A stretch of 63,888 bases of DNA, filler included, from Octopus bimaculoides (taxonomy: Eukaryota), in NCBI RefSeq assembly GCF_001194135.2. It is 7 parts of 7 records of this genome, joined end to end, with 100 filler letters (N's around TTAATTAATTAA, not from the genome) between each part and the next. Parts side by side here need not be neighbours in the genome. Positions count along the whole stretch, not along the records: positions 1 to 19,308 come from NC_068999.1; positions 19,409 to 41,491 come from NC_068990.1; positions 41,592 to 47,887 come from NC_068985.1; 4 more parts are not named here. One strand, written 5' to 3'. Both the position numbers and the translations under genes were made by a program. How positions within the stretch are numbered: the stretch's first letter is position 1; each line of letters starts with the position of its first letter. The notes beneath the pieces were generated by a model, which did no database searches, was not told the DNA's origin, and worked only from the letters and a program-made list of their open reading frames with translations. Of this stretch, positions 2,218 to 44,694 are shown piece by piece.

Positions 2218-2608
2218 AGTTACTGTTAATACCTAATTTAGAGAATTAACATTGCTTGTTTTCACTTTTTCGATATCAGTGAAGAATTTCACTGGAAAAA
2301 GGTACATAAGGTTGCCAAGAATTTATCTCTCTCATCGCAGATCGGTGGCTATCGGACGCTGACGAAGGGAAATAACCCTGAAACCCGGGTCCGTCCGTGC
2401 TACAGATCACGATGAGAGGGATAACTTCCCTTGGCAAAACAAACAAGACACAGAAGTTTGTCGATAAGCCAGCTGGAGGAGATGTCCTCCTGGGGCTAAA
2501 AGCAACAGTAACATCCACCCCTAGGGGTCAGCCACATTTAAGTGGCAATATACTTCACTTTATCGTGCAGTTACTGTTAATACCTAATTTAGAGAATTAA
2601 CATTGCTT
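2218..2608 (+). mobile_element. Retrozyme-like unit: 351-nt HHR-containing monomer plus 40-nt terminal redundancy
   Basis: AGTTACTGTTAATACCTAATTTAGAGAATTAACATTGCTT is identical at 2218-2257 and 2569-2608. The interior carries a canonical HHR and several hairpins. Confidence 0.7.
2353..2397 (+). ncRNA. Type I hammerhead ribozyme, canonical core
   Basis: Stem I CGGACG/CGTCCG; CTGACGA; stem II AGGG-AAATAA-CCCT; GAAA; minimal stem III C-CCGG-G with palindromic loop; GTC cleavage triplet (C2391). Confidence 0.9.
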
Positions 2609-2830
2609 ATATATATATATATAATTGGATTATTTTTCGTTTGAGAACGCTCGGGTTCATTCTTAGCATTCTCGTTTGTGAGAGCAATCCAGTTTATTTA
2701 AGATAATCTCAATTTAAAAATCATCTTCGGCTAATCTTTGAGAGGACGTTCGTGCTGCCTCGACGGAGGTTTGCGCTCTCTGAGTGCTCTTGTTATTATT
2801 GTTATTATTGTTATTATTGTTATTATTAGA

Positions 2831-3044
2831 AAGGCGGTGAGCTGGCAGAATCGTTAGCACGCTGGACGAAATGCTTAGCGGTATTTCGCCCGTCGCTCCG
2901 TTCTGAGTTCAAATGCCGCCGAAAATGACTTTGCCTTTCATCCTTTCAGGGTCGATAAATTAAGTACTAGTGAAACACTGGGGTCGATGTAATCGACTAG
3001 TCCTCTTCCCCCAAAATTCAGGCCTTGTGTTTATTGTAGAAAGG
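2831..3044 (+). mobile_element. SINE family A
   Basis: Same head and core; tail GGCCTTGTGTTTATTGTAGAAAGG then (ATT)n. Confidence 0.85.
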
Positions 3045-3230
3045 ATTATTATCATTATTATATTTAAATATTCATGTAAATACTCGTGATTAAAGATCTC
3101 CCAAGAAAATTATTTTCTTACATTATCCGATAGACAATAAATTTTTATCGTCACTTTAATTGTGGACTATTTAATTAAATCTTTCAGTTTATTCATCCGT
3201 ATGCAGAAGAAAAGTTCGTTCTTTTGCTAA

Positions 3231-4092
3231 ACATTCACTGCTTTCTTTGTTCCTGTTTCAAAATGGCAACCGCAGCGCGAAAGGAAAGGGATTGCTAGTC
3301 CAATTAGTAATAGGGGTTACAGTGTTGGAAACGATATATACACCCATTACATTTTCAAATACAAAATCAAACTTTTTAAGACAGACAATATGACAATTAA
3401 ACCACAAAACCTTCTAGTATTAATATCAACACTTACACAGCAAAACTCTACAAAAGCAGCGAAAACCTTAATTAACACTGATAATATCTTGTGTTATGGT
3501 TTCGCCACAAGGCACTCGAGCTACATATTGCGTCAACAAGAAACCAGTAGCTAGCGGCGAGCTGGCAGAGATACCGCGAAGCATTTCGCCGAGCGAAATG
3601 TCTAGCGTTTATTTCGTCTGCCGCGACTTTCTGAGTTCAAATTTCGCCGAGGTCGACTTTGCCTTTTATCATTTCGGGGTTGATTAAATAAGTACCAGTT
3701 ACGCACTGGGGTCGATATAATCGACTTAATCCGTTTGTCTGTCCTTGTTTGTCCCTTCTATGTTTAGCCTCCTGTAGGCAATAAAGAAAACAGAAACCAG
3801 TAACCGTACCTTTAATATGTCAGACACCATCTTTGGGTCTGCGCTTGCCTGTAACCATGGCAATGACGGAAATTACCTCAAGTGACAATTTCGTTTACTG
3901 GAAAAGATTATCATCCTCCTCAAAGATGAAAATGGACAAAACACTAACTACGACTTACTATGTATTTGTTTGTATGATAAATATCTGCCTAAAAATTATA
4001 AGCAAGACCCACCTCAATCAAATCCAAACCATTACGATAAAGGCTGGAGAGTAAACCAAAGACGCTTCGTAAGTAACCCACAATCCGTATAA
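3231..4092 (+). pseudogene. SINE-interrupted ~200-codon reading frame, possibly a decayed ORF1 of a non-LTR element
   Basis: Removing SINE 3550-3791 and one copy of TSD AGAAACCAGTA gives one frame 3231-4092 with a single internal TGA (3883). An AAAATGGC start at 3263 lies one frame off. No family motif recognised. Confidence 0.4.
3550..3791 (+). mobile_element. SINE family A, long-tail variant with 11-bp TSD
   Basis: TSD AGAAACCAGTA at 3539-3549 and 3792-3802; tail TTTGTCCCTTCTATGTTTAGCC...GCAATAAAGAAA. Confidence 0.9.
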
Positions 4093-4125
4093 CCAACGCC
4101 TAACACACTTAACACACACACACAC

Positions 4126-4169
<44 letters not shown>

Positions 4170-4913
4170 NNNNNNNNNNNNNNNNNNNNNNNNNNNNNNN
4201 NNNNNNNNNNNNNNNNNNNNNNNNNNNNNNNNNNNNNNNNNNNNNNNNNNNNNNNNNNNNNNNNNNNNNNNNNNNNNNNNNNNNNNNNNNNNNNNNNNNN
4301 NNNNNNNNNNNNNNNNNNNNNNNNNNNNNNNNNNNNNNNNNNNNNNNNNNNNNNNNNNNNNNNNNNNNNNNNNNNNNNNNNNNNNNNNNNNNNNNNNNNN
4401 NNNNNNNNNNNNNNNNNNNNNNNNNNNNNNNNNNNNNNNNNNNNNNNNNNNNNNNNNNNNNNNNNNNNNNNNNNNNNNNNNNNNNNNNNNNNNNNNNNNN
4501 NNNNNNNNNNNNNNNNNNNNNNNNNNNNNNNNNNNNNNNNNNNNNNNNNNNNNNNNNNNNNNNNNNNNNNNNNNNNNNNNNNNNNNNNNNNNNNNNNNNN
4601 NNNNNNNNNNNNNNNNNNNNNNNNNNNNNNNNNNNNNNNNNNNNNNNNNNNNNNNNNNNNNNNNNNNNNNNNNNNNNNNNNNNNNNNNNNNNNNNNNNNN
4701 NNNNNNNNNNNNNNNNNNNNNNNNNNNNNNNNNNNNNNNNNNNNNNNNNNNNNNNNNNNNNNNNNNNNNNNNNNNNNNNNNNNNNNNNNNNNNNNNNNNN
4801 NNNNNNNNNNNNNNNNNNNNNNNNNNNNNNNNNNNNNNNNNNNNNNNNNNNNNNNNNNNNNNNNNNNNNNNNNNNNNNNNNNNNNNNNNNNNNNNNNNNN
4901 NNNNNNNNNNNNN

Positions 4914-4964
<51 letters not shown>

Positions 4965-5446
4965 CATACATACATACATGCGTACATACATACATACATA
5001 CGTACATATATACTACCACCTAACTTAACCTCAAGAACGCACAGTCATATAACGTCTGAAAAATTTATGATTTCAATTTTTGATTCTCTATTCACCTCCT
5101 GCATACATAATATTCCTCATACATTTATAATTCTTGGAACAATACTTGCATCTACATACAGTTTCTCTTACGGATTATTTTGGCAAATTTAAAAAGAAAA
5201 AGAAGGTAAGAGTACATTAAGTGGGGCGCATACCACACGCATATTTTAACGCTTCGAAATTTCGCCAAAAAATACATAATTGAAATGAACTCCCGAGCGA
5301 TTTATAATTTCCATCGAAATCTTTAAATTATTTTGTAAATCAAGTCCTCCGTGGACACGAACAATTTTTCATATATGGACATGTAAATAGTACTTACCAT
5401 AATGCAACCGTATGAATATAATCACATCTTGTTTTATCATCATTAG

Positions 5447-5768
5447 TGTTTGAGTCATCTGACTGCGGCCTTGCTGGAGTACCGGCATGAAGATTTTCGC
5501 CAAAGAAATCTCTTTTGCCGAACTGCCAAGTTACGTAGATGCAAACAAACCAACACCGACTGTTAAGCGATGAGGAAAGGACAAACACAAACGCAAAGAC
5601 ACGCACACACACACACATACATACACACGCAAATACAAACAAACACACTCACACAAACATATACAGACACACACACAGACGTGCTTCTACACAGTTTCCG
5701 TCTACCGAACTCACTCAGAAGGCATTTTCCCAACGTTCCACGCAGTAAGACTAAACCGAAAACCACGC
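5447..5768 (-). mobile_element. SINE family B (CORE-type, OR2-like), degraded
   Basis: Reverse complement of the family B tail (GACTGCGGCC.TGCTGGAG) and body (TTTCCGTCTACC), with internal CA microsatellite. Confidence 0.75.
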
Positions 5769-5871
5769 TGTAAACAAAAGCAAAAGAGAAAAACGAAAAT
5801 AAAAATCCAACAGTGTTTCTTTGGTTGATTTCTGTTCCCGCGAGAAAGTTCTTTTATCTTGTATCGTTTAT

Positions 5872-6308
5872 CCTTTACTCATCTCAGTCACCAGACTTCG
5901 ACCATGCTGGAGCACTGCCTTGAAGAATTTTAGTCGAACTCAGCAACCTCAGTACTTCTTATATCTCTGTAAAGCCTGGTGCTTATTCTATCGGTATCTT
6001 TTGCGGTGGCGTTAAGTTACAAGGATGCAAACACACAAACACCGGTTGATGGTGGTAGGGGACAAACACATGCACACACACACACACATATACACACATA
6101 CATGCACATATAAAAATGCACATGTATACATATTTATATACATATAGACAGGTTTCTTTCAGTTTCCGCCTGTCAAATCTACTCAAAAGGCTTTGGTCAG
6201 CCTGAGGCCACAGTAGAAGATATTTGCTCAAGGTGCCAGACACTGGGACTGAACTCAGAACCATGTTGTCGGGAAGAAAACCTCTTACCACACAGCCATA
6301 CTTGCGCT
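5872..6308 (-). mobile_element. SINE family B, near full length
   Basis: Head, CORE-like block (TTGCTCAAGGTGCC on +), central microsatellite and 3' module match copy 20831-21208. Confidence 0.8.
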
Positions 6309-7243
6309 TATAAGTTGTAGAAATTACGTCGGAGGTTCTTTTCTGCAAAGGCTTCCCTTAGCGAGATAATTTTGTTTAGCTTGGCAGTTACGTTTGTATT
6401 CGTGCAGCAGTTCAAGAGAATGGATAAATTAAGCCCGTTTTTTATGGTTTTTGTTCAATACAGTATAACATAAACAAACACAAACAATACACTTATCTAT
6501 GTTAACGCGCATAAATATTATATATAAATAAGGTGTACAAACAATGAATATAGAATAGAACCAAAACGCCCTATGATAAATATTCCAGTTCCTTTCAGGA
6601 ATCTCTGCTCAGAAATAATGAGAAAAAGGAAAGAGAGAGGACTTGCTGGAAGGCTTACTGCTATAGTAAAGGCGATAGGAAGGCTTCGCAAAAGTAGGGT
6701 TTAGATTAGAATTTTAGAAATGTCCATCATGCTGTAAAAGAAATTGGATGTCTTCCAATATATTCTCCTTAAGTTAATCAAGAATATAGTATTCAGAAGG
6801 AGAACCAATAAATATTCTGCATAACTAAACTCTGATACCAAACCTATAAATTCTTTAAGAAATACGTCCGTATTTGTTGACAAAACAAAATGAAAATCTT
6901 TATATAAGGTAAGCAAAGATAGTTAGACAACTTCTTACAATATAACGCCAAAGATCGGCGTATAATTCTAGCTGTCACATGCATCGATGCATGCAAACAT
7001 GCTTGTATTTGTTCGTGCGTGTGTGCACATGTAGTATGTATATATGTATGGTTGTATGTATGTATGCATGTATGTATATATGTATGTATGTATGTATTTA
7101 TGTACGTATGTATGTATGTATGCATGTATGTATGTATGCATGTATGCATGAGAGTATCTTGATCAGCCTATGAATATTTCAACCGACCGTCGTAATATGT
7201 GTGTGTGTGTGTAAATGTATGTATGTATGTATGTATGCATATG

Positions 7244-8140
7244 CGAGGGGGTGCCCAAACTAACCGGAAACGTTCACCGTTATAGTTTGGGCTTCCGCTG
7301 TTAGAAGCCACTTGATATGACCCTCAGGCACCAGTCTGCCGACCGGCGGCGTCCACTAAGGTCATACTGCCACGTTGTTTATCTTTATTTTGCAGTGCTT
7401 CTCCGCTGTTCGTCGATTTCTGCGATGGTTGAAACGAAGAAACAGCGTGCTTCCGTGAAATTCTGTTTTCTGCTGGGGGAAAACGGCGGCCGTAACAGTT
7501 TTCATGCTTTATACAGCTTACAAGGCCGCTGTCATGAGCAATACACAAGTTTATGAGTAATTTTCACGTTTTAGGAATGATCACTTATCACTTGAGGACC
7601 TACTCAGTTCAAAGCGATCGTCGGCCTCCCGAACAAATGAAAACATCATGAAAATTCATGAACTGATATTGGAAGACCGTCACCGAACAATTGACGAATT
7701 TGTTGATATGACTGGGGTGTCTTGGAGCTTCTGCTATTGAATTTTGAACAAGGAATTGTGAAAGAAAAGAGTTGTAGCAAAATTTGTGCCTCACTTGCTC
7801 ACAGAAGATCAAAAGCAGTCACGAGTGAAAGCGTGTCGTGAACTGAAAGAAGAGTTGGAAGTTGATCCAGAACTTTTTTCGAAGGTCATCACTGGTGACG
7901 AAAGCTGGTGCTGCGGAATTTGCCAATGTGGAAGTGGTGAAGAAAAAAAAAAAAAGGAGGGAGGTGTTAAAAGGCATTACTTCGCAAGAGTTCCAGGATT
8001 GCTTCGAACAATGGAAAACGCGTTTGGATCAATGCATTGCTTCAAATGGAGAATACTTTGAAGGCGATGAAAAGGTAAACATGTAAAACTAAATGAATAA
8101 AAAATATTGCAAAATTCCGATTTCTTTTGGGTAACCCTCG
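7244..8140 (+). mobile_element. Internally deleted mariner (DD34D-type) element with both TIRs
   Basis: TIRs CGAGGGGGTGCCCAAA...CCGGAA and TTCCGA...TTTTGGGTAACCCTCG-TA. Frameshifted transposase pieces KQRASVKFCFLLG, KFVPHLLTEDQKQSRV, FSKVITGDESWC, CIASNGEYFEGD. Confidence 0.9.
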
Positions 8141-8241
8141 TATGAATGTACGTATGTATGTATGTATGTATGTATGTATGTATGTATGTATGTATGTATG
8201 TATGTATGTATGCATACATACGTACGATATATATATATATA

Positions 8242-9280
8242 CGTGCGAGACTCACGTGGAATGTGACCAAATGAGGTTTAGTTTTCAACATAGTCTCACT
8301 TGGGGCCCGTGCACTTCTTCCACCGGTGCTGCAGTGCTTGAATCCAATTGGTGAAGAAGATTTCATCCTGTTGGTAAAAAAAAACAATAGTAGATATGAC
8401 GACATCATCTCTGCGATACGGGTTCCCAGCCAAGTGTTTTTCGCGTTGGGGAACAAATGATAGTTAGATGGGGCCAAATCAGAAGAAAACGAAAGATGAT
8501 CACCCAGTCCAATGCCACACTCATGCACAGCAGCCATTGAAAGCAGGGACTTTTGTGCTGGAGAATTGTCCTGATAAAGCATTCGTCAGTTTTCTTGGAC
8601 GTTTGGTCTTGACAGCCTTTCATAATTACCTCAGTAAGTAGGCATCACACTCTTTACTGATGATGTGGCCCTTTTAAAGATAATCAATAAACACAAAAAT
8701 CTGAGCTATCACCTTTCCTGCAAATGAAGCAACCTTGGTCTTGTTTGGAGCGGGTAAGGAGGGGTGTTTCTATTGCATGGACCGTCTCTTTGTCTCTGGC
8801 TCAAAGTGATGAAGCCAACACTCATTCTGGATTAGGAAACGTTTAACGAAACAAGCTGGATCTGCTTCAAACAATGTCAGATTTCCCTGTGATGTGATCA
8901 TCTTGATGCACTTTTGATCAGATGTCAGAAAACGTAGCATTCGTTGAAAAGCAACTTTCGTTATGCCAAGTTCATTGTGCAGAATATTCTCAACTCTCTC
9001 ATGGGATATGCTAATAGCACTGGCTATTTGATTTATAGTTAACCGCCTGTCATCCATCACCACCAATGGTTTCCTCGGTGTTAGCAGTTGCAGTACGTTC
9101 AGACCTTGTGTTATTTTCAAGACTCTCCCTTCTCTTAAATTCTGCCACCCACTTTTGTACCGTTGATAAAGCTTGAGATTCATCCCCTTATGTACCAACC
9201 ATGTCAGCATGAATGTCGTTGGAGACTAAACCGTTTTTCTTCTGGTACTTGACAACAACACGATGCCAAATTTTGTCGAG
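8242..9280 (-). mobile_element. Decayed mariner transposase, a different lineage (Himar1/Hsmar2-like)
   Basis: VMDDRRLTINQIASAISISHERVENILHNELG, WLHHFEPETKRRSMQ, LYQDNSPAQKSL...FSSDLAPSNYHLFPN, terminal DYVEN. Frameshifted; ends in TA at 8240-8241. Confidence 0.9.
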
Positions 9281-10214
9281 TAACTTGTGGGGTCTATGAA
9301 AGGAAAGTATTATATCACTCAAAACGTATACAACAAGGGCTAACAATAAGTCTAAAAACAAACATGGACGTTTAGCATAAACTAATGAAAATACTTTATA
9401 CCAGAAAAGGGATAAAATTCCTCAGAAGGAGTATATGTCTGTCTACTAATTGCATGGATAATCTCAGTTATTTGAAACTTTTTCAGATTTCTATATTACT
9501 GCTTCTGTTTAGTATGCAGAACACACCAGTACGATATTTCTTTCAGCCATCTTGGTAAGATATTATTGGTTTCTTCTTGTCGCTGCTGTTGTTGTTTTTG
9601 ATGATTGTGGTGATGTTGTTACTGTTGTTGTCGCGCGACATAATATTTGTTTTCTCCTTTCCAGTCTAGAAGTCAATTATTGAAGATTGTTCGATTAAAT
9701 ATTGATATTTGCCTCAATATTACACCTCAATATTGCTTTCTCTTTCGTAATATAGAGTGAAAGCGAGCTGGTAAATAGTTTGATATCCACTGAGATATTT
9801 GCCCGGTAATATTTCAATATTTACCAAGTCAAATGAATTACAAATGTATGTAATCTTTCCATATGAACAGTAATTGCATTAATTATGAAAATAACGAAAA
9901 CACACACACGTACACGCATACACACGTACGCGCAAAAATTCTTACCGTAGGCAAGGGAGATATATACCTATTATTTACTAAAATGATAAGTATAATCTAA
10001 CAATGGAATCCGATTGAAATGGAAGCCTGAACACATAATACATGGAAGACATCTGCAAAAAAATAGGGCCAGATATGAAGTAGATAAGGGACTGTCATAG
10101 AAGCACAACTTTCGGCAATATTAATGTTCTTCGTTTTAATAAATCAAAAGTTTGGTCATGTGTTTGCGTTATCTGTCTTTATGTGTAGAAATATTTCTGG
10201 TTAACAAGTTCATT

Positions 10215-10385
10215 TTGTAATCATGAGGTCACACGTTTGATCCTATGTTAGGACACCTTAAGCAAGTATCTTCTACCGTTCTGTCACTACCTTGTGACAA
10301 CCGAAATCATGTGAAGGAAATTGGGTAGGCAAAAACTTTGCAGAAGACCGTCGTATGAATTGTACCCGTAATTCAAAGGTCAACA
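10215..10385 (+). mobile_element. Degraded CORE-type SINE variant (tail TGTACCCGTAATTCAAAGG)
   Basis: ACACCTTAAGCAAGTATCTTCTAC core; a similar tail occurs at 26745-26765. Confidence 0.5.
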
Positions 10386-10477
10386 TTGTCACAGACCCAA
10401 TCTCTAATACTGATTTGTCCCTAAGAATCACTTGATTCTTGTGTTTGTGCAATACTCAGACATACACAGTATAATGG

Positions 10478-10678
10478 TACAAGGCCAGCAATTTTAAGGG
10501 TAGAGGTGAGTCGTATATATCAACTCTGATATTTGACTGGTTTTTATTTTATTGACCCCGAAAGGATGAAGGACAATGTTGACCTCGCCAGGATTTGAAC
10601 ACAGAAACTAAAGAACTTGAAGAAATGCCGCTAAGCACTTTCTCCAATGCTCAAATGATTCTGCCCGTTCGCCACCTT
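10478..10678 (-). mobile_element. SINE family A
   Basis: Reverse complement of the family A core (GACCCCGAAAGGATGAAGG) and head (CTGCCCGTTCGCCACCTT). Confidence 0.8.
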
Positions 10679-10684
10679 CATATG

Positions 10685-11453: not shown

Positions 11454-11512
11454 TACACTATTACACAAGATGGACTCTGTCATCATCACTGCCACCACCG
11501 CCACCACTCCCC

Positions 11513-11545
<33 letters not shown>

Positions 11546-12384: not shown

Positions 12385-12545
12385 AATAGATAGTTGAAAT
12401 TTATAGAAAAAAAAGACGAAGATTGGTGTATGAACAACAAGCAAGTGTATTAGTTTAACGCTCGGGAAAAATGAAAAAGATTTTTACGTTTACAGCCTAC
12501 GCTCTTCAAGTGAAAGTAGTTCGAGGAAATAAACAGAGAGTGAAT
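12385..12545 (-). mobile_element. Short repeat with degenerate minimal HHR (same family as 36734-36900 and 19840-19960)
   Basis: Near-identical GTGTATGAACAACAAGCAAGTGTATTAGTTTAACGCTCGGG block in the 12.4-kb and 36.8-kb copies. Confidence 0.7.
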
Positions 12546-12624
12546 GAAAGAAAAACGTGTTGAGTTCAGCGGTCCAACATGGCGAATTTAGATTGATAGA
12601 TAGATAGAGAAATATGATGTACAT

Positions 12625-13840
12625 ACACACAATGCCAAAATTTGGTACGAGTCCTTCCCCGATTTTCCAGATGTACATCACTGCATATCTTTCCCACTTT
12701 CGTTCTGGGGAGTAGAGTCTTAACTCTTTCAGCCTTTCCTAGTAGCTGAAGCGTTGCATTGAAACGATCTTCTTTGTTCGTTGGATTGCTTCGAGTTCTG
12801 CCGTGAATTTTATACTGTGCTGATCATAGTTGGGAGCAGCAATACAAGCGGCTGAGGACATATGTTCTGCAAAGAACCTTCATAGTTTCCTTTTCTCTCG
12901 TTCTGAAAGTTCGGTGGATCCATCCAGCGAGCGGTTTGCATTTTATTGCCAAATTAGTTATATGTACCTGGAAAGAGGCATCATTCCTCATGTCAATGCC
13001 CTGGTTATTCACTGATTTTCATTCAAGGATTGCAATTCCTCGTGAGCCAGTGTATCCTGTCTGAATATCATTCAGCTTTGTGGTGGTAGCGTAGGGCTTG
13101 TAATTTTCCTGCATTAAACAGCATCTTATTCTCCTCAACTCATTTGTATGTTATGTCCAACTCCCGTTGCAGACGCGCATTATTTCCAAGGTTCTGTATC
13201 GTCTGAAAAATTTGTCTTATCTGCATAGCTAGCAAGGCTGGCAATCTGAACCGCTGAGGACATGTCTGAAAGGGTCATTATGAATAGCAGTGGCCCTAAG
13301 ACAGTGCCCTGTGGAGCGCCACTTGCTATTTATGTTTCCTTTGAGGTGGCTCCATTGGCCACTACTGCCCGACTTCTATCTTTAAGAAAATCGTGTAGCC
13401 ACTCACCAAGTTTTTCGATTATGCTGAGATAATGCAGTTTGTAACATATCATACCATGGTCGACTTTATCGAAGGCTTTTGCAAAGTCGAGATATATCGC
13501 ATCTACACTTGATTGGTCGAGCAGCTGCCCAGTCGTAATGCTGTAAGAGCTGTGTCAGGCAGCTTCTACCTGGTCAAAAACCATGCTGGGTGTCAGTCAG
13601 CAAGTCATTCTCTTCAAGAAACACAATTAGATTCCTGCGGACTATTCAGTCCATGACTATGTTGATGTGTGAGGTCAGAGAGACAGGCCTATAATTTTTA
13701 ACATCTACTCTGTTTTCTTCTTTGTGGATAGGGCATATTATTTCCTTCTTCAATTTACCTGGGAGCTTACCACTTGCTAAGAAGGTCTGAAAAAGAAGCA
13801 AGGGTTCACTTGCATGATTTGAGAAGGATTGCTGAGAATC
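12625..13840 (-). mobile_element. CR1-group LINE reverse transcriptase fragment (pseudogenised)
   Basis: ICPIHK...KNYRPVSLTS, QHGF.PGRSCLTQL, YLDFAKAFDKVDH, SGAPQGTVLGPLLFI, ASYAD, GWIHRTFRTR, YIWKIGEGLVPNFGI. Confidence 0.85.
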
Positions 13841-13976
13841 TATGATATGTCTGTATATATATATATATATATATGTGTGNNNNNNNNNNNNNNNNNNNNN
13901 NNNNNNNNNNNNNNNNNNNNNNNNNNNNNNNNNNNNNNNNNNNNNNNNNNNNNNNNNNNNNNNNNNNNNNNNNNNN

Positions 13977-18715: not shown

Positions 18716-18772
18716 GTTTTACTGATGAAGGAAGAGTTATCAAACTTATCCAGAAATTGATCAATCTAGAAC
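18716..18772 (+). ncRNA. Type I hammerhead motif, intact core, extended stem II
   Basis: GTTTTA/TAGAAC stem I; CTGATGA; A-GGA..(AGTT-ATCA-AACT)..TCC-A; GAAA; palindromic stem III TT-GATC-AA; ATC triplet. Stem II closing pair is an A.A mismatch. Confidence 0.7.
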
Positions 18773-19512: not shown

Positions 19513-20525
19513 ACATCATAAGAATTTATGAATTTCAAAACATCGTGAAGTGATTCTATTTATACACTATTACTTATAGCTTTGTCTGCTTCTAGTTTCA
19601 CCTTTCCAAAAACCATACACAAATACGCACAACAAATATAATGAAAGTGAGGTAAGAGAAATAGCTACGAGCGTTACCCCAGCACCTTATGCGTGCTTCT
19701 AGAAACAGATAAACTCTTACATTTGCATCATCGACACACTCAGACCTTCCTCTCTTCTTTCTCCCACCCATAGAACAGCATTTTAACCTGCCTTTTTTTC
19801 TGTTTCTCTTTCTCACATCATCCATATTCTTTTTCTTTCTTATGATGAAGAGCTAACGCCCGAAGTATTATGACACTTTATGTTTCCTTTAAAGCGTTAA
19901 GTTTTTACCTTTTTGTCAGACTATGTTCCTCATATGTTGTCCTTTTTTATCATTCATTATTTTTACACCATATATTAAAAAAAAAACAAGATAAACTCTT
20001 GATTTACTAAAATTGTCTCCACTTCCAGAGGGGGGAGGCCAATCGCTTAGTACCCGCTCCAAATGAGAACGGTAAAGAATCTCAAAACTCAAGAATCCTC
20101 AAAATTCATGTGCCATTAAGGAAAAATATATTTATTATTATTTTTTTTTTTGCCTGGGGATAACAAGAGAGCCATGATCCCATATTTCCACCTCAATAGG
20201 CGTCATTAGCACGACAATTATTTAATTTCATCTCTAGAAACCAAGGGACTTAGACTTATACAAAAAGAACAGAACACATTTATGGCCGAGGTACCTTCCA
20301 TAATTCAAGCAAATTAAGCTTGATATATTACGCACACACACACGCACACATACACATATACACACACCTAATTCATGCCACCGTCCAACCTATGGCAGCA
20401 TAGTAAATGGTTGTTAATTGACAACTGCGACGATGATGATGATAGATATATATATATACATATATGTAATATATATTAATATATACGAGTATGTACCTAT
20501 ATGCACATATATACATGTACACACG

Positions 20526-22689: not shown

Positions 22690-22727
<38 letters not shown>

Positions 22728-23066
22728 GTATATATATATATGTATAAAGAGAGAATAAGATAAAGAGACCAATGGCAAAGTTAGAAATATATATTTTATG
22801 GATAAAGTCTTACAGCTGTTTCAGGGAAAATCCAATGTATCGCTTCATCGGAGACAGAAATAGTAGAGGAATGGATTATTACATCTATAAGAGGAGAGTT
22901 GTAGTAAGAAGTGAGAGCGATATATATACGCAGGGCTTCTTTCAGTTTTCCGTCTACCAAATCCACTCACAAGGCTTTGGTCGGCCCGAGGCTATAGTAG
23001 AAGACACTTGTCCAAGGTGCCACGCAGTGGGATTAAAACCCGAAGCAAACTTCTCATCTCACAGCC
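22399..23066 (-). mobile_element. SINE family B split at its central microsatellite by a gap and a ~180-bp HHR-bearing insert
   Basis: 3' half 22399-22584 and 5' half 22931-23066, same strand. Confidence 0.7.
22807..22855 (-). ncRNA. Type I hammerhead motif, one core change (U4C)
   Basis: Minus strand GTCT-CCGATGA-AGCGA..TCCCT-GAAAC-AGCT-GTA-AGAC. Confidence 0.7.
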
Positions 23067-30869: not shown

Positions 30870-31512
30870 AATAAGAGAGCTAATAATGCCGATGCTGACA
30901 AAGCCCTTACCCATCAATAGTTAATGGCTTCTGGCTTAAAATCAGAAACAGATGGGTTTATCATAGCAGCCCAAGATCAATGCCTACCTACAAGGAACTA
31001 TCAGGCCAACACATTAAAGAACGGCAGCTCCCCAACAAGTCGTGTATGTAAACAACAAAATGAAACCGTTTATCATGTTGTCTCCATGTGAAGTCTTCTT
31101 GCGCCTACAGAGTATCCCAACAGGCATGATAGAGCAGCACAATATATTCACTGGGTAATTTGCAAAATCCTGGGCCTGCCTCGTGATAAAAACTGGTGGG
31201 AACACAAACCACCTCCAGTGCTTGAAAATGATCACATCTCACTCCTCTGGAACTTCACCGTTCAAACTGACAGAAAGATAGATGCAAATAGGCCAGACAT
31301 TATATTGAAAGACTTCAGACAAAAATCATGCTTCCTCATTGATATGACTGTCCCAATCGACATAAATGTATCTGCCAAGACCTACCAAAAACTGAGCAAG
31401 TATAAAGATCTTGAAATAGAAATTGGCAAATGTGGAACCTGAAGACTAAAACAATACCTGCTGTCATAAGTGCCCATAGGAATGATAGCAAAAGGGGCTG
31501 ACTCCTACTTAT
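30870..31512 (+). mobile_element. R4/Dong-like non-LTR retrotransposon fragment (CCHC finger plus RLE)
   Basis: LKSETDGFIIAAQDQCLPTRNY, RHDRAAQYIHW, LLWNFTVQTDRKIDANRPDIILKD...LIDMTVPID...KLSKYKDLEIEI. Preceded by ATAATAATAA. Confidence 0.85.
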
Positions 31513-33150: not shown

Positions 33151-33702
33151 AAAGATTCCTTATATATATATATATAATATACATATGTATATATAATATA
33201 CATTAGTCAACAGATGAAGTCCAGAGAATCTCAGTATAAAAGATACTTAATAATACTCAAAAGATTCAAACTGAGATTCTGATATCTTATCTGGGGATCG
33301 ATTCCATAGGAATGGCTACAAGAGGGATGAAGTTGAGCGAATATAGAGACAATTATGCAGACAAGCAAATTAGACATTAAATAACATTAAGATCTGTAGT
33401 GTAAGATCTTCTCTCCCCTGATGACGGAGGCTCGTCTTAGCCAATGTTGATTGGTTCCATTACGGCTGCATATTGTATTGAATTACATCTACCAACATTA
33501 TGATGGATAACTTAGCCCCCCCCCCGAAACAGCTGTTGGATTTATAACAGCTTTAATTTTCTCTGTCGTTTGTACTCTAAGTTGGATCTATTGATATAAA
33601 TATCCCTTTATTTATACTTGAATATTCATTGTCTAAAAGTCTCCCCTTTTTGCTTTCTCTTGTTGTGTATGTATACATATATACATATTTCGGTGTGTCA
33701 TT

Positions 33703-33748
33703 ACCGACTCTGATGTCCCAAAAGTGTTGGGCGAAACGGTCAGTCTGT
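33703..33748 (+). ncRNA. Type I hammerhead motif, degenerate at A9
   Basis: ACCGACT/AGTCTGT stem I (6 of 7 pairs); CTGATGT; CCCAA-AAGTG-TTGGG; C; GAAACGGTC. Confidence 0.55.
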
Positions 33749-34124
33749 AGTCGAACAGTTTGTCCAATGTACGAGGAAAAGCCAAAACAGCAGAGGATGC
33801 AGTAAATCAGGTTCCTAGCGGTGCAGAGTCGATGGCGTGGAAGAAGCTGTTGTGTGTACAGCTGAACACAGTCTTCGTTCTACTCTTTCCTTCTTTCTCT
33901 CTTCATTTCTATCTTTTTTGTTTTTTTATTGTTGCTCTTCATTTTTTTTCCTGCTACTTTCCTTCCTTTTCTTCTTTTCTCTTTTCCCTCTTCTTTTCTC
34001 TTTTCGCTCTTCCTTTCTTTCCTCCCGTTTGTCAAACTTTCTTTCACTTTCTTCCTGCCGTCACCCTTTGACTAATAAACTGTATATAAATGTGCCAAGG
34101 ATTCTGTCAGCTTGAAAAAATATT

Positions 34125-34823: not shown

Positions 34824-34870
<47 letters not shown>

Positions 34871-35363: not shown

Positions 35364-35396
<33 letters not shown>

Positions 35397-35600: not shown

Positions 35601-35889
35601 ACGAAAGGTAATAAAGTAACAAGAAATAAGTCATGAGATGCTGATTAAAAATGGAGGGAAAATAAAAGATAAAAAAAACACACACACAAAAAGAAGCGAA
35701 GAAATGAAGAAAACAAAATGGAAGATATGGCGTGAGATGCACCGAATAACCTTGCCAATTGCTTTGAGAAACAGTAAGTATGCCATTGTGTGTATGTCTA
35801 TATATAAATGTGTGTGAATGTGAATGTGTGTGTGTGTGCGTGAATCGATGTGCCAGTGTATCACATATATATGTATGCATATGTGTTGA

Positions 35890-35921
<32 letters not shown>

Positions 35922-35963
35922 CTTACACACACACACACACAAACATGTGTGTATATATGTATG

Positions 35964-35997
<34 letters not shown>

Positions 35998-36701
35998 TGT
36001 ATGTATGTACGTATGTATGTATGTATGCATGTGTGTCAGTATAACTATATTTATGTATGTATGAATATAAATGTATGTATGTATGTATGTATGTATGTAT
36101 GTATGAATGTATGTATGTATGTATGTTTGTATGTATGTATGTATGCGTACATGTGGATGGTATAGTAGGGAGCGAGGAGAGCGGGATGCTGTGATGAGAA
36201 GTTAGAAAGAAGAGTATAAGTAGGGGGGGGNNNNNNNNNNNNNNNNNNNNNNNNNNNNNNNNNNNNNNNNNNNNNNNNNNNNNNNNNNNNNNNNNNNNNN
36301 NNNNNNNNNNNNNNNNNNNNNNNNNNNNNNNNNNNNNNNNNNNNNNNNNNNNNNNNNNNNNNNNNNNNNNNNNNNNNNNNNNNNNNNNNNNNNNNNNNNN
36401 NNNNNNNNNNNNNNNNNNNNNNNNNNNNNNNNNNNNNNNNNNNNNNNNNNNNNNNNNNNNNNNNNNNNNNNNNNNNNNNNNNNNNNNNNNNNNNNNNNNN
36501 NNNNNNNNNNNNNNNNNNNNNNNNNNNNNNNNNNNNNNNNNNNNNNNNNNNNNNNNNNNNNNNNNNNNNNNNNNNNNNNNNNNNNNNNNNNNNNNNNNNN
36601 NNNNNNNNNNNNNNNNNNNNNNNNNNNNNNNNNNNNNNNNNNNNNNNNNNNNNNNNNNNNNNNNNNNNNNNNNNNNNNNNNNNNNNNNNNNNNNNNNNNN
36701 N

Positions 36702-36733
<32 letters not shown>

Positions 36734-36737
<4 letters not shown>

Positions 36738-36900
36738 TTGAAATTTATAGTTGAAATTTAAAGCAAAACAAAAAACGAAGACAGGTGTATGAACAACAAG
36801 CAAGTGTATTAGTTTAACGCTCGGGGAAAATGAAAAAGTCTTTTACGTTTCGAGCCTACGCTTTTCAGCAGAAAGGAAAAAGAGAAAATAAACACAGAGA
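36734..36900 (-). mobile_element. Short repeat carrying a minimal (no helix III) HHR-like motif at 36840-36875
   Basis: Minus strand CTTT-CTGCTGA-A-AAGC-GTAG-GCTC-GAAAC-GTA-AAAG; homologous to 12385-12545. Confidence 0.65.
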
Positions 36901-37949
36901 GAATGAAAAACAAATGTATATTTTAGTGGTCCAGCTGAAAAACAAATCTATTTTATTCCACACGGGTAGAAATATAGGAAAAGTAGAGTTTGAAAATGCA
37001 CTGAGAATAGTTAAAATATTTTTTTTATATTTAAGGCTTTAACCGGTTTCACAGTTTAAACTGATTATCAAAAATTTCAAATAGAAGGACGTGGCTTATG
37101 TCACAACTGTTTTGCTTTTGATTAGTGTTTGAAGCTTGTCCTATTTTTATAGGGAGTTCGTGGCTCAAATTAGTAGAAATCGAAACACGATCATCCCGAA
37201 GTATTAGAACATACATCACATGTTTTATATATATATACACATGTATTACGTATAATTGTATATTAATATATACCATAATGTATTATAACACATTAAGCAG
37301 CCTTATAGTTTTATTGTATTGTATGTTATATGCTATTATATGTTAGTATCCAACGCATTTTATTACATAACACCAACTGAACGATAACATCCTTAAAAAA
37401 AAACAAATCAACGTAAGGGGAGATAAATCTAGCAAAAACAGGGGGAACGATGAAGAATTTTTAACCTCTAAACATTTTCCTCCGGTGGAATTCTGAAATT
37501 TCCGCATGCAATTCTAAAGTTTTTCGTTTAAAACAAATATCCCTCGGCTTATGAATTGTAGTTCTAGATGGTGCTTATTTACAGGTGGGGATGGAGTTTG
37601 TATAAAGGCGGTAGAGATCAACTAATGCCAAATACTTTGGCCTTGTCTCATACCACGGATGACCTAACAGTCAACGGCAAGTCTTTCCTTACATTCGCCA
37701 ATATTTCATTTTGATTTTCTCTTTCAATATATGTCGTGGGAAAGAAGACCACATGTGATCCCAAACGATTGTTTATTGCTGCCTACAAGGCCACACCATT
37801 GTAGGTTCAAATGACTGCATAACCATTGAATTCGCTCATTGGTTGAACGTGTAGATTTTCTATAAAAAATAATTGAGTTGTCTGTTTTCTGTTTGTTTGA
37901 ATATCGTGGGAACTAAAAACACTAACACAGTAATTTTTTTTTGCAAACA

Positions 37950-37984
<35 letters not shown>

Positions 37985-38323
37985 TATTATTATTATTTAA
38001 TTACACGTATTACTTGATTTATATATATTCAATCTAAGGGATTTGCTACGTCTGAATAACCACTTACATCATACACTTCACGTATACCTTACACGAAAAC
38101 GCACACATAAACACACATACATAAATACACACAAACACACATACACACACACATACTCACAAACACAAACACATACATATACACAAACTCAAAATGAAAT
38201 ATAACAAACAATACACACTTACACACTTTTACTTAGTCGAGCGCTAAATAGTTACACAACTGAAGCGAAACAGATCAGCAAACCTATGTAGGTGTCATCC
38301 TTTCACAACATTGCAAGGAAGTA

Positions 38324-38368
<45 letters not shown>

Positions 38369-38811
38369 CATTTCGTGACAGCTTAGACAAGTTTGCCGTC
38401 CTAAATATTCTGATATGAAATTTCTGGTGGGAACCAAACTCAGAAGTGTATCGTCCTTCAGAAGACGTATCCTACACGACGTGAGTTTCTTTTTGAAAAT
38501 CTCAACGAAGGGCGTTCCAGCATGCACTCGGCTGAGATTTACCTCTAGGTCAGAGCACTTGACATTCTCCTCCCAATTTTAAACATGGCTGAGTGGTTAA
38601 GTAGTGCTCTTTGCAACCACGTAGTTTCGGGTTCAGGTCGTCTGCCCGGCACCTTGCCTACCTGTCTTCTACTATTGGCCTTGTGAATGAATTTAGTAAA
38701 CGGACACTCGTGTATTCACACACTCATATAAAATGTGTATATGTATGTATATATGCATGTATATATATATGTATATATATTTAGTGGGGAAACACATGTT
38801 GTGGATATAAA

Positions 38812-39081
38812 TAGAGAAAGAAATAAGATGAAAAAACATAGAAGATTTGTTTTACAGGATTTAAGAGTATATTAGAGCCATGATAATAAATAAGCCAAAT
38901 AAGGTTTTGATCTTTCAACATAACTGAAGTAAGGACCGGTTTCGCATTGCACATCAAACTGAAAGTTGAAATAAATAAATTTTGTACAAAATTGGATAAT
39001 ATCTTTATTATCATGGCTCTAATATACTCTTAATTCCTGTAAAACAAATCTTCTGTGTTTTTTCATCTTATCTCTTTCTCT
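38812..39081. mobile_element. Foldback/MITE-like element: ~78-bp inverted arms, 113-bp spacer
   Basis: 38812-38890 is the reverse complement of 39004-39081 with about 3 mismatches. Confidence 0.8.
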
Positions 39082-39109
39082 CTCTCTCTCTTTATATATT
39101 CTATATATA

Positions 39110-39141
<32 letters not shown>

Positions 39142-40045
39142 AAAATTAGGGATAAAATCCAAAATTACAGGTAAAAACTCAATTAAAATCAATTTATTAN
39201 NNNNNNNNNNNNNNNNNNNNNNNNNNNNNNNNNNNNNNNNNNNNNNNNNNNNNNNNNNNNNNNNNNNNNNNNNNNNNNNNNNNNNNNNNNNNNNNNNNNN
39301 NNNNNNNNNNNNNNNNNNNNNNNNNNNNNNNNNNNNNNNNNNNNNNNNNNNNNNNNNNNNNNNNNNNNNNNNNNNNNNNNNNNNNNNNNNNNNNNNNNNN
39401 NNNNNNNNNNNNNNNNNNNNNNNNNNNNNNNNNNNNNNNNNNNNNNNNNNNNNNNNNNNNNNNNNNNNNNNNNNNNNNNNNNNNNNNNNNNNNNNNNNNN
39501 NNNNNNNNNNNNNNNNNNNNNNNNNNNNNNNNNNNNNNNNNNNNNNNNNNNNNNNNNNNNNNNNNNNNNNNNNNNNNNNNNNNNNNNNNNNNNNNNNNNN
39601 NNNNNNNNNNNNNNNNNNNNNNNNNNNNNNNNNNNNNNNNNNNNNNNNNNNNTTTTTTTTTTTTTTTTTTTTTTAGTTAAGAAAGAACTTGCACCAGATT
39701 CAGAGCAATACCTCCCAGATCTTAGATTTAGATCAAGAATGTCATACGAGTTCTGTGTAATATATTGATGTGTGTGTATGTGCTTTTGTGCGTGTGTATG
39801 TCTATATATATATATGTGTGTGTGTGTATGCATGTATTACGAATGTATATATATATATATATATATATATATCTACCAATATATACACATATATATATGT
39901 ATACATACATATATACACATAGATATATATTCGTATAGATGTATGTTTGGCAGTCTGTCTGTCTGTCACTATCTATTACTAATATATACATACATGTACA
40001 CACATGCATATATGTATATGCATGTGTGTGCATGTATGTATATAA

Positions 40046-40085
<40 letters not shown>

Positions 40086-40151
40086 CTGTCTCTCTCTCTC
40101 TCTGTCTCTCTCTCTCTGTCTCTCTCTCTCTGTCTGTCTCTGTCTGTCTGC

Positions 40152-40302
<151 letters not shown>

Positions 40303-41051
40303 CATATATATATGTGCGTGTGTGTGTGTGTGTGTATACACACATAAATATACACAACCATCTACACAGCAATCATTATATAAACACACAGATTTGATGA
40401 CAACTAACAAATTCATTCATTTCGTATCTTACTTCTCTAATATTCTCTCAGCCGTTCCACCGTCACCACTTGAACCCACACCCACTCAACCCCTCGCCAC
40501 CACTTAAGAAGTATTACACTGACCACCTTACCATCATCACCTTCAACCACCCCCACCACATCTACCATTACCTTCTATGTTATATCCACGTTTATTTATA
40601 TATTTACCGTTTAGTTATATTTATTATTATTATTATTATTGTTGTTGTTGCTTGTCCGACCCCATCCCGCTCACCCCCCCCCCCCTCGGCCCATTGCACT
40701 CCACTCTACTTCAACGAAAACCAAACACTTCTTCCTCTCTTTCAGCAAGTCCTTTACATTTGCAACAGCGACCAAAACCTAATTACATACACACGTATAA
40801 ACACAATTACGGGCTTACATACCCAGTGCACAAACACAGACGGGTTTGTGAGAGCGGATATGTTTGTAAACACACACACACACACACATACACATACCTG
40901 TATTGTGCATGTATATGTGTGGCGGTTGTGTGGTTATAGAAACAGAAGAAATAAAATTCAAAATCCAAGGAGCTTATATGTATGTATGTACGTATGTACG
41001 TATGTATGTACATGTGTAAGTGTGTGTATTTGTGTGTGTGTGCGTCTGTGT

Positions 41052-41109
<58 letters not shown>

Positions 41110-41131
41110 GGATAGATAGATAGATAGATAA

Positions 41132-41257
41132 GTTTCTTTATTAGCCACGCAGGGCCGAACACAGAGGGGACAAAATACAATGTAAAGCTTTTCTTTTCGA
41201 AAATAGAAAAAAAAGGAGAAAACTAAAATTCCGATCAAAAGGGATCGTGAGAAAAAA

Positions 41258-41313
<56 letters not shown>

Positions 41314-41349
41314 GCTGGTGGTAGGTAGGTAGGTAGGTAGGTAGGTAGG

Positions 41350-41392
<43 letters not shown>

Positions 41393-41491
41393 GTTTCTTT
41401 ATTAGCCACACAGGGCTCAACACAGAGGGGACAAAATACAAATGTAGAGTTTTTCTTTTCGAGGGGGTCGAAAACAAAGCAGAAAAAAAAC
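41132..41491 (-). mobile_element. Two 3'-end fragments of one retroelement (Tx1/L1-like) embedded in (GATA)n
   Basis: 41132-41260 and 41392-41491 both end (minus strand) TTTGTCCCCTCTGTGTT..GCCCTG.GTGGCTAATAAAGAAAC and run directly into (CTAT)n. Clade assignment is an inference. Confidence 0.6.
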
Positions 41492-41591
41492 NNNNNNNNN
41501 NNNNNNNNNNNNNNNNNNNNNNNNNNNNNNNNNNNTTAATTAATTAANNNNNNNNNNNNNNNNNNNNNNNNNNNNNNNNNNNNNNNNNNNN

Positions 41592-41672
<81 letters not shown>

Positions 41673-41796
41673 CATGCACATATGTACATACATGACAAAC
41701 ACAGATGCACTCACACATATCAACATACAGTACATGCATATACATATACACGCACATATACTTACACACACGCACACACACATACATACAGAAATG

Positions 41797-42140
41797 TGAA
41801 GGTGCGCTCCTAGCGGTTAGAGTGTTGCACTTATGATGGCAAGATCGTGGTTTCGAAACCCTGACCAGATAATGCTTTGTGTTCTTGAGCAATTCGCTTC
41901 ATTTCGCGCTGCTCTGTGATCATTCCGACACCTGACGTGTGGCACGCCGTGCACCTGTACAGGTAATATCGATTTGATCGAGTGAGTTCATGTACAACAT
42001 AAACATTTGATCATTATAAGCAAATCTATGCCGGTTGTTCAACACGAAATCACGAAACCCTCATCTATCATCTGCGACACGTGTCTGTGGAGTGCTCAGC
42101 CACTTGCATTTTGATTTCATGAGCAGGCTGTTCTTTTGAT
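41797..42140 (+). mobile_element. tRNA-derived SINE family C
   Basis: A-box-like CTAGCGGTTAGAG, B-box-like GGTTTCGAAACC, core TGTGTTCTTGAGCAA shared with 44695-45030. Confidence 0.65.
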
Positions 42141-42167
42141 CAGATCTACTGGAGCTCTCGTCTTCGA

Positions 42168-42198
<31 letters not shown>

Positions 42199-42219
42199 TG
42201 TGTGTGTATGTGTGTGAGT

Positions 42220-42372
42220 GCGGGAGTAGCTGTGGTAAGGAGCTTGCTTCCCGACAACGTTTCCGGTTTCAGTACCAGAGCGAGGAACCTTTGGCAAGTG
42301 CCTTCTACTATAACCTCAGTCCGACCAAAGCCTTTTGAGTATATTTGGTAGATGGAAACTGAAAGAATCCTG
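42220..42372 (+). mobile_element. SINE family B 5' half
   Basis: Head plus CORE-like block plus GGAAACTGAAAGAA. Confidence 0.75.
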
Positions 42373-42404
42373 TCTTATATATGTATACACACACATATAT
42401 ATAT

Positions 42405-42850
42405 ATAGTTATCGTCAAGTCAACATGGTAGTCCAAAAAATAGGACGAATGATGCCATTGATTAGCTCCAAGAGGCAATCACCTCTAGCTAGCTATGTGA
42501 CACACGAACCTGTGTCCATTATAACCTTCGAACAGGGGAGGTCAGCCGTTTCCCCTTGCTGGTCTGTCATCTACAGACTAGTTTCGGGATATTGCCCCTT
42601 ATCAATGTAGAGCAGCCCAACCCAGCAGGCGTCGCTACTGACCGTCTGTACGAAGGATTATTTACCTAATTCAGTGGAATATATCCACTGGTTTTCAGAA
42701 ATAGAGATTTTAGTATTTCTAAGGCTCTCTAAAGGAGACTACGGCAGCAGTACTGGATATTGATAGTTATCGCCAAGCCAACATGGCAGTCCAAAAAATA
42801 GGACGAATGCTGCCGTTCATTAGCTCCAAGAGCCCATCGCCTCTAGCTAG
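42405..42850 (-). mobile_element. Retrozyme-like unit: 358-nt monomer plus 88-nt terminal redundancy, homologous to 2218-2608
   Basis: 42405-42492 and 42763-42850 are direct repeats with 9 differences. A 33-nt block matches 2467-2499 at 26 of 33 positions. HHR inside. Confidence 0.7.
42570..42611 (-). ncRNA. Type I hammerhead motif, core inactivated (C3U, G8A)
   Basis: Minus strand TCTACA-TTGATAA-GGGG-CAATA-TCCC-GAAAC-TA-GTC-TGTAGA. Confidence 0.75.
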
Positions 42851-42999
42851 ATTTCAAGTGAAACACATTCACTGATCTACAAAATTAGAAATATTACATT
42901 TCTAAATCTCTGAGAGAGAGAAATCAGTAAATGTATTTCACCTGAAATCTATATGTTTTCAAAGGTGAATAAGCGTCGACAGCTAGCAAGCCATGCTAC

Positions 43000-43042
43000 T
43001 CCAGACTGATGATGAGCAATGACTCTGAAAGTAGTCTCTGGA
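43000..43042 (+). ncRNA. Type I hammerhead motif, intact CUGAUGA/GAAA core, two stem mismatches
   Basis: TCCAGA-CTGATGA-TGAG-CAATGA-CTCT-GAAA-G-TA-GTC-TCTGGA. Confidence 0.75.
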
Positions 43043-44694
43043 TGCTGGTTTTGATGGGNNNNNNNNNNNNNNNNNNNNNNNNNNNNNNNNNNNNNNNNNN
43101 NNNNNNNNNNNNNNNNNNNNNNNNNNNNNNNNNNNNNNNNNNNNNNNNNNNNNNNNNNNNNNNNNNNNNNNNNNNNNNNNNNNNNNNNNNNNNNNNNNNN
43201 NNNNNNNNNNNNNNNNNNNNNNNNNNNNNNNNNNNNNNNNNNNNNNNNNNNNNNNNNNNNNNNNNNNNNNNNNNNNNNNNNNNNNNNNNNNNNNNNNNNN
43301 NNNNNNNNNNNNNNNNNNNNNNNNNNNNNNNNNNNNNNNNNNNNNNNNNNNNNNNNNNNNNNNNNTATTTATAAAATTAATCTAATTTTTGTATCTCTAT
43401 GGATTCATACTTAGCTTATATATAACTATACTGGTATATTCACTACTAATAAAAAAAAAACTGCTTAGATCATAATTTTATTAATATATAATTAGCATGT
43501 TCCTTTACCTCAATGCTCCTTATTAATACCGCTATGTACCAATTAATCAATATTCACAGATACCATCTGATGAGTTAGTATTTAAGTGTACAATATGTAT
43601 AAATATTAAACTATTTCTGGATAAGTTCTTTTCCTCCCTCAATTGTGTTAAAAATTTGGTATATACTCAAAAGTCTTCATAAATTTCTATCCCTTTGTTA
43701 TAACATTCTTCTTAATAATCCTTTGAATAACCCTCTGAGTTAAAGGGACCTCTAATACTAGCCCCCACCGCCAGGCTTCGGGTCCTCTGGACCATGGCTC
43801 TTATTGGCCCATACATACACCTACCTCCGAATATACTCTTGTTGATTTTGTTATCCGAATTAATGATGAACCTCTTTGAATTATCTTTGATTAGCTCATT
43901 TTCGTTTTAATTATACACATTAGCGTTGGTCATGAATGCTTTCAGCTGCTATTCTTTTTACAAATGTCACTTCTTTATATGATTTGGTAGGACGAAGAAC
44001 TAACTATGCTACGCCGATGATCCCTGTGAATGCAGAAGTAGGTTTCCATGGCAGTCATTTGCCTCCAGAACGAATATCAGATGTTCCTCTTCTGTTTGCA
44101 TGTTAATTCTTCGAGAATTATTTTTAAGATCTTGAAATTATTTCTCTTTCTGATTCAGAGCCTCCAATACTAACCGCAAGTTACCTTTTACTATTTTTTG
44201 AATCTGTTTCTATTCTAATAATTTGGTAGCGTTGATATTATGATCTAAATATTGGACAAACTTTTAGGCTACAAAGCGATAGATCTTCTTGCTAGAAATA
44301 GTGGCAACATATTTGTTAAATCACCTATTTTCTTTGATAATACATCCAATATACCCGTATAACAGACGGGATAGTCACGGCTGGAATGCTTTTCAAAGAG
44401 AGCTGTATCAAGGATGATCTAAAGAAACAGCAGCAGCACAGCCACCGCCACCACTGCCAATAGCTACCTCAGCAATAACAACAACAAATAGACCATGGTA
44501 AGATCTATAGCTTGTGTGTTCATGGTTAGGAACTGATAGAACCTCAACTTCATGGAACGCATAAAGGACAGAACTTGCCCTTGAAAAAATTTCGTATCCA
44601 TGATCATCCTCTGCCCGAAACTGCTGCGGGGATTCAACACAACATCGCAAGCTTACAGAGAAACTCAGCTTTATCACATTAGTACCATTATGAA

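What the first reader, a model, noticed from the sequence alone, without database searches (positions are those of the whole stretch)
2353..43642. Window-wide density of hammerhead motifs: about 14 in 64 kb
Seen: recognisable motifs at 2353(+), 18716(+), 22807(-), 33703(+), 36840(-), 42570(-), 43000(+). Weaker relics at 12481(-), 14386(+), 19182(-), 19842(+), 33500(+), 38934(-), 43608(-). Nearly all have a tiny self-complementary helix III (AC-CCGG-GT, AC-TA-GT, AC-AGCT-GT, ATT-GATC-AAT, AC-CG-GT, AC-GT). Inference: several distinct HHR-bearing retroelement families colonise this genome. If typical, this extrapolates to very large genome-wide numbers, with possible effects on introns and transcripts.
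Basis: partly seen in the sequence, partly recalled or inferred. Interest (0 to 1): 0.75.

Follow-up and report, generated by a model that had tools for sequence, protein, structure and literature searches.

The report
Penelope-derived hammerhead relics, ordinary density
Ten of the fourteen motifs are mostly damaged copies from repeat families left by known jumping genes (Penelope-like elements and, likely, their small non-coding parasites) that carry a predicted self-cutting RNA, and sampling the genome suggests about 10,000 intact-looking motifs, a density like that of other animals, not the half million the window implies.

Summary
Partly confirmed. Ten of 14 sites belong to nine genome-wide hammerhead (HHR) repeat families; only 3 are intact in the window. 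One site is weak and three fail: 33703 is the antisense of a GIY-YIG coding fragment, 14386 is single-copy, 43608 has no core. Three families are 3' ends (pLTRs) of decayed Penelope-like elements (PLEs), seen next to their RT or GIY-YIG frames. Three are ~350-nt non-coding, circularly permuted retrozyme-like units. A systematic 654-kb sample gives 6 intact motifs per Mb (about 12,000 genome-wide, 95% range 3,000-30,000) and roughly 10^5 with relics, not the ~510,000 the window extrapolates to. That matches published animal genomes. RNA-seq reads cover two families on both strands with no pile of ends at the cut site, so transcript effects are unsupported. The kind is known (Cervera 2014, 2020), and this scan found octopus retrozymes and PLE ends before on other DNA. 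One point is left open: the three PLE-linked families fix non-canonical cores family-wide (U6, C4, U3 opposite G8), a natural test of whether PLEs need cleavage at all.

The parts
2218..2608 (+). Family A: 351-nt non-coding unit plus 40-nt terminal redundancy; intact type-I HHR, core at 2359, predicted cut after 2391, helix III AC-CCGG-GU
   Evidence: 1911 candidates, 40 scored, 93-100% identity; CTGACGA in 10 of 13; circular fold z -7.0
12393..12573 (-). Family E copy (solo pLTR of a Neptune-type PLE); HHR damaged in this copy
   Evidence: 140 bits
18661..19000 (+). Family I copy; HHR core at 18722, AU-UGAUCA-AU helix III, A.A at the base of stem II
   Evidence: two other loci, 69-83% identity
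18999..19308 (-). Family C copy in (TA)n, 260-nt period; this copy lacks the 5' core that full copies carry
   Evidence: canonical core in 9 of 9 copies that reach it; 6 of 15 are 5'-truncated
19807..19867 (+). Possible old E-like relic (weak)
   Evidence: E=0.019; no BLAST copy in fetched loci
22724..22921 (-). Family F copy: 3' end of a Hydra-type PLE; family core CCGAUGA (U4C), core at 22851
   Evidence: 1301 candidates; 12 of 14
33385..33690 (+). Family D copy: old family, CUGAUGA at 33418 and GAAAC at 33526, joined by a predicted ~100-nt extended stem II
   Evidence: 87% of cells paired vs 25-42% slid; covariation not above shuffles
33691..33825 (-).
   Evidence: tblastn 58% identity, E=3e-12
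36750..36930 (-). Family E copy (solo pLTR); minimal HHR AC-GU, core at 36871; family core CUGUUGA (A6U)
   Evidence: (3099 candidates)
36972..37175 (-).
   Evidence: two copies in L109
38735..39125 (.). Family K fold-back (pLTR plus inverted part); HHR on - at 38957, family core UUGAUGA; 3' end of a Neptune-type PLE
   Evidence: (112 candidates)
42399..42850 (-). Family B: 358-nt non-coding unit plus 94-nt redundancy; HHR core at 42605 with U3-A8 covariation
   Evidence: UUGAYAA in 14 of 17
42850..43058 (+). Family H copy (343-348-nt unit, cut by an N gap, with a short inverted piece); core at 43006, C15.2>G in this copy
   Evidence: 1312 candidates; 13 of 14 canonical

Best explanation
The motifs are the scattered, mostly decayed ends of at least nine repeat families: three are 3' ends of Penelope-like retrotransposons and three are ~350-nt non-coding units likely copied by the same enzymes, each carrying a hammerhead predicted to cut only as a dimer. 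SHOWN: family E flanks both sides of a decayed RT plus GIY-YIG frame; F and K lie downstream of GIY-YIG or RT frames; A, B and H are permuted units with terminal redundancy and adjacent inverted pieces; all helix-III loops are palindromes. INFERRED: PLE reverse transcription starts at the 3' end and usually stops early, leaving solo pLTRs, often in (TA)n. In tandem or more-than-unit transcripts two HHRs would pair through the palindrome and cut out a unit RNA, possibly circularised, which PLE RT and endonuclease would copy back. Lone copies in host transcripts are predicted to be mostly inert. Genome-wide this amounts to about 10^4 intact-looking motifs and of order 10^5 with relics, most decaying neutrally.
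For: E lies in sense 1.2-2 kb downstream of the RT match in 5 of 20 PLE-RT loci, against about 0.1 expected from 10.7 copies per Mb; it also lies upstream in sense in L185 and upstream inverted in L187. L185 shows DKG, YIDD, a CxxxxCxxC linker and GIY-YIG between two E copies. GIY-YIG frames lie upstream of F in 3 clear and 1 weak of 18 distinct non-self loci, and RT or GIY-YIG frames upstream of K in 6 of 10. A, B and H have periods of 351, 358 and 343-348 nt, variable start points, inverted partial copies, longest ATG ORF 45-62 aa and stable circular folds, z -3.7 to -7.7. B has two tandem HHRs in 2 of 14 loci. The palindromes form duplexes but no hairpins. Density. The same architecture is described in PMC4209133, PMC8557442, PMC7229834 and bioRxiv 10.64898/2026.07.22.740005.
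Against: No autonomous partner was found for A, B, C, D, H or I. No A locus (0 of 12) holds two tandem same-strand HHRs. Pfam hits for the decayed frames are below cut-off (GIY-YIG E=0.008-0.84, RVT_1 E=0.14), so clade names rest on motifs. Cleavage and circles are untested, and RNA-seq shows no end piles. The density rests on 4-19 hits from 80 stretches of the large scaffolds, with small contigs unsampled. The family profiles were seeded from the window and omit families such as those in L055-L064, L090 and L120.
Confidence: 0.85

Rival explanations
1. The genome is exceptionally saturated with hammerheads (hundreds of thousands) that cut host pre-mRNAs and shape transcripts.
For: The window has 11 family-profile hits in 59.7 kb; Rfam RF00163 gave 186,566 first-look candidates; window enrichment over the sample is not significant (p=0.08-0.09); A and E reads are present in RNA-seq.
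Against: The sample gives 4 strict and 10 relaxed hits in 654 kb, and locus flanks give 1 and 3 in 159 kb. Of 74 Rfam candidates scored, 11 passed the cut-off, and the loose first look also rings in 12 of 14 control genomes. Read depth is flat across the E cut site and no ends pile at either site.
Confidence: 0.07
2. In the autonomous PLE families the hammerhead fold is kept as a binding or termination signal for the PLE protein and no longer needs to cut, whereas the non-coding units need cleavage to release circles.
For: All three ORF-linked families fix deviant cores: E position 6 is U in 37, C in 8 and A in 1 of 46 copies, and U in 98 of the first 100 of 1084 exact pattern matches, reversed control 0. 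F has C4 in 12 of 14; K has U3 in 13 of 13 with G8 in 13 of 13. In E, N7, H17 and loop II vary as an HHR predicts. A, H and C are canonical and B is compensated. Changes at A6 and U4 lower activity in vitro (PMC3088659 passages).
Against: Only three families. Minimal-HHR family N is canonical (5 of 7). RNA reads show an A sister subfamily with U4C. U4C remains viable in a viroid and A6C still cuts slowly (PMC3088659). A mutation in one master copy can be amplified without any selection.
Confidence: 0.2
3. Most listed motifs are chance matches of a short degenerate pattern in AT-rich DNA.
For: True for 33703, 14386 and 43608 and possibly 19842. Loose tiers and the 3' half-motif do not exceed controls.
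Against: Ten sites sit in repeat families whose other copies keep or restore the HHR layout; family profiles give 0 hits in shuffled and reversed sample DNA.
Confidence: 0.03

Closest known systems
Minimal hammerheads in pLTRs of metazoan EN+ Penelope-like elements (Cervera and de la Pena 2014, PMC4209133; parts 1-2 of 4 read)
   Same: Type-I HHR with absent or palindromic helix III, an extra nucleotide between 9 and 10.1, many consensus families per genome, mostly solo truncated copies, opposite-strand pairs, U3-A8 covariation (Schistosoma). Thousands per genome (about 4,000 in coelacanth, 9,000 in Xenopus).
   Different: Probably a cephalopod host. Family-wide A6U, U4C and uncompensated U3 cores were not in the text read; its figures and supplements were not seen and mark 'exceptional core changes'.
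Neptune and Hydra clades of EN+ PLEs (Craig et al. 2021, PMC8557442; passages and section 11 read)
   Same: E and K frames have the CX2-5CxxC linker before a C-terminal GIY-YIG. The F frame has CxCX5C, with CxxC and CxH around the conserved E and N. Inverted truncated copies, 30-46-nt tails, (TA)n targets.
   Different: All copies seen are decayed. The paper calls Hydra HHRs canonical, whereas F has C4. No tree was built.
Metazoan non-LTR retrozymes (Cervera and de la Pena 2020, PMC7229834, passages; Li, Clavereau and Pollet, bioRxiv 10.64898/2026.07.22.740005, parts 1-3 of 5)
   Same: Non-coding units of about 350 nt (mussel 350-390) with one type-I HHR, a stable self-paired fold, dispersed monomers and short tandems, PLEs in the same genome. 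Mussel has about 5,000 motifs and axolotl 126,247.
   Different: Circular RNA and cleavage are not shown here. Most copies are 1-1.5 units, and the second HHR is usually in an inverted piece.

Membership tests
EN+ PLE pLTR with HHR (families E, F, K) | RT plus C-terminal GIY-YIG frame flanked by direct pLTRs | tested here: met
   Both flanks in L185 for E; 3' side only for F and K. Frames are broken and Pfam hits are sub-threshold.
EN+ PLE pLTR with HHR (families E, F, K) | Type-I HHR with absent or palindromic helix III inside the pLTR | tested here: met
EN+ PLE pLTR with HHR (families E, F, K) | Canonical CUGANGA core (or U3-A8 covariant) | tested here: not met
   E CUGUUGA, F CCGAUGA, K UUGAUGA family-wide. 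This concerns the ribozyme, not PLE membership.
EN+ PLE pLTR with HHR (families E, F, K) | Adjacent inverted truncated copies | tested here: met
   Seen in part of the loci of E, F and K
EN+ PLE pLTR with HHR (families E, F, K) | Insertion into (TA)n microsatellites | tested here: inconclusive
   A microsatellite follows the 3' end in 19 of 20 E loci, but the genome is microsatellite-rich and no control was run
Neptune (E, K) or Hydra (F) clade | Placement by RT phylogeny | not tested
   Assigned from linker and endonuclease motifs only
Non-LTR retrozyme (families A, B, H) | Non-coding unit of 150-450 nt with one type-I HHR | tested here: met
   351, 358 and 343-348 nt; longest ATG ORF 45-62 aa
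Non-LTR retrozyme (families A, B, H) | Tandem arrays with two or more HHRs | tested here: inconclusive
   B 2 of 14 loci; A 0 of 12; H 0 of 12. A short-read assembly with gaps may collapse arrays.
Non-LTR retrozyme (families A, B, H) | Stable self-paired circular fold | tested here: met
   z -7.0, -3.7 and -7.7 against 60 shuffles each
Non-LTR retrozyme (families A, B, H) | Accumulation of circular RNA | tested here: inconclusive
   24-38 reads per run go back 351 nt in A, which genomic more-than-unit copies also explain; library type unknown.
Hammerhead ribozyme (all families) | Site-specific self-cleavage | not testable with these tools
   No end piles in RNA-seq, a weak test
Type-SGC permuted hammerhead (PMC10085705, passages), considered for family D | Non-circular block order with pseudoknots | tested here: not met
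   D fits the ordinary type-I order with a nested long stem II

The most novel reading that the evidence does not exclude
The autonomous Penelope-like families of this genome, including one with about 20,000 copies, spread with hammerheads whose catalytic cores are crippled family-wide (A6U, U4C, U3 opposite G8), while the non-coding retrozyme-like units keep working cores. PLEs would then use the hammerhead as a shape for their protein to read, and only their circular parasites would need it to cut.
Probability: 0.2. Interest if true: 0.6.

Novelty: new member of a known kind. Interest (0 to 1): 0.27.

Why it matters
As a census it is ordinary: it extends PLE hammerheads and retrozymes to a probable cephalopod at a density like other animals, and shows that motif counts by eye need family and reversed-sequence controls. 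The role of the HHR in PLEs is still open in the papers read (cleavage of precursors, low activity needing cofactors, or no need at all). Neighbouring families with canonical, compensated and deviant cores, two or three of them tied to their own ORFs, make that question testable with simple cleavage assays.

Tried and rejected
The Rfam scan of the window was swamped by microsatellite miRNA hits; 290 of 440 rows were not shown. Loose descriptors and half-motif counting do not beat shuffled or reversed controls and were dropped. Homology between units A and B: no BLAST match beyond 20 nt. 33703 as an antisense HHR conserved in PLEs: rejected. A PLE frame upstream of 43608: no tblastn match with the PLE pieces used. 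An ORF link for D: no coding remnant recognised upstream in 6 loci. RNAalifold on D gave a weak, different fold (-6.2 kcal/mol). My first pair count on D was mis-registered and was redone; its covariation is not above shuffles, and the model was drawn from the same sequences. The run search listed no RNA holder on record. Literature searches: 'hammerhead ribozyme'+'octopus'; retrozyme+Penelope+hammerhead; core-variant terms; A6U, CUGUUGA, CCGAUGA, Neptune; cephalopod+Penelope terms; permuted hammerheads; pLTR+mollusc terms. In these listings I saw no octopus HHR census and no A6U PLE hammerhead. PMC13282606 (passages) has no mention of 'hammerhead' or 'ribozyme' in its main text. The Terminon paper is not held. 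Supplements of PMC4209133, PMC8557442 and the bioRxiv preprint were not seen and may list such variants.
Full report
Setting. The window is a pack of seven stretches from a 2.34-Gb genome with about 30 large scaffolds, rich in microsatellites. An octopus is my inference from these features and recall, and earlier notes of the scan say the same. All 14 sites lie in the first three stretches.

Noticed in passing
   Followed up: partly
window 2300, 42667 and 42963 regions: AGGTNNATAA lies 59 nt (A, 7 of 12 copies), 62 nt (B, 9 of 12) and 43 nt (H, 2 of 11) upstream of the core, with a CAGTG..CACTG hairpin just before it in A and B, although the units do not align; it resembles a splice donor or a shared cis signal.
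   Followed up: partly
RNA reads on window 2355-2412; L253: Sister subfamily of A with U4C and a compensatory U15.2-A16.2 pair; a 5'-truncated A-like piece with U15.2-A16.2 was seen in L253.
   Followed up: partly
L055, L058, L062, L063 and L056, L057, L059, L061, L064: Further HHR families found by Rfam RF00163, one with a ~65-nt loop II and one with a short loop.
   Followed up: no
L070, L092, L104, L116, L185, L224: Family N: ~200-nt element with a canonical minimal HHR (AC-GU), 4 copies in the 654-kb sample; partner ORF not sought.
   Followed up: partly
window 52420-59217: 6.8-kb contig made almost wholly of a degenerate CGAA/CGTA satellite, ending in a possible Hydra-type GIY-YIG fragment at 59144-59218 (E=0.01).
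   Followed up: no
window 725-1060 (-) and 31092-31442 (+): Fragments that look like the restriction-like endonuclease end of R4/Dong-type non-LTR elements (motif recall; Pfam gave only sub-threshold L_protein_N hits).
   Followed up: partly
window 8770-9225 (-) and about 12700-13870 (-): Mariner-like transposase fragment and a decayed CR1/L2-like RT region (from translations; names recalled).
   Followed up: no
window 51784-52273: 490-nt fold-back (76% self-complementary) with no HHR hit and no copy among fetched loci.
   Followed up: partly
window 43400-44330: AT-rich decayed coding-like stretch upstream of the 43608 site; no match to the PLE pieces tested; identity unknown.
   Followed up: partly
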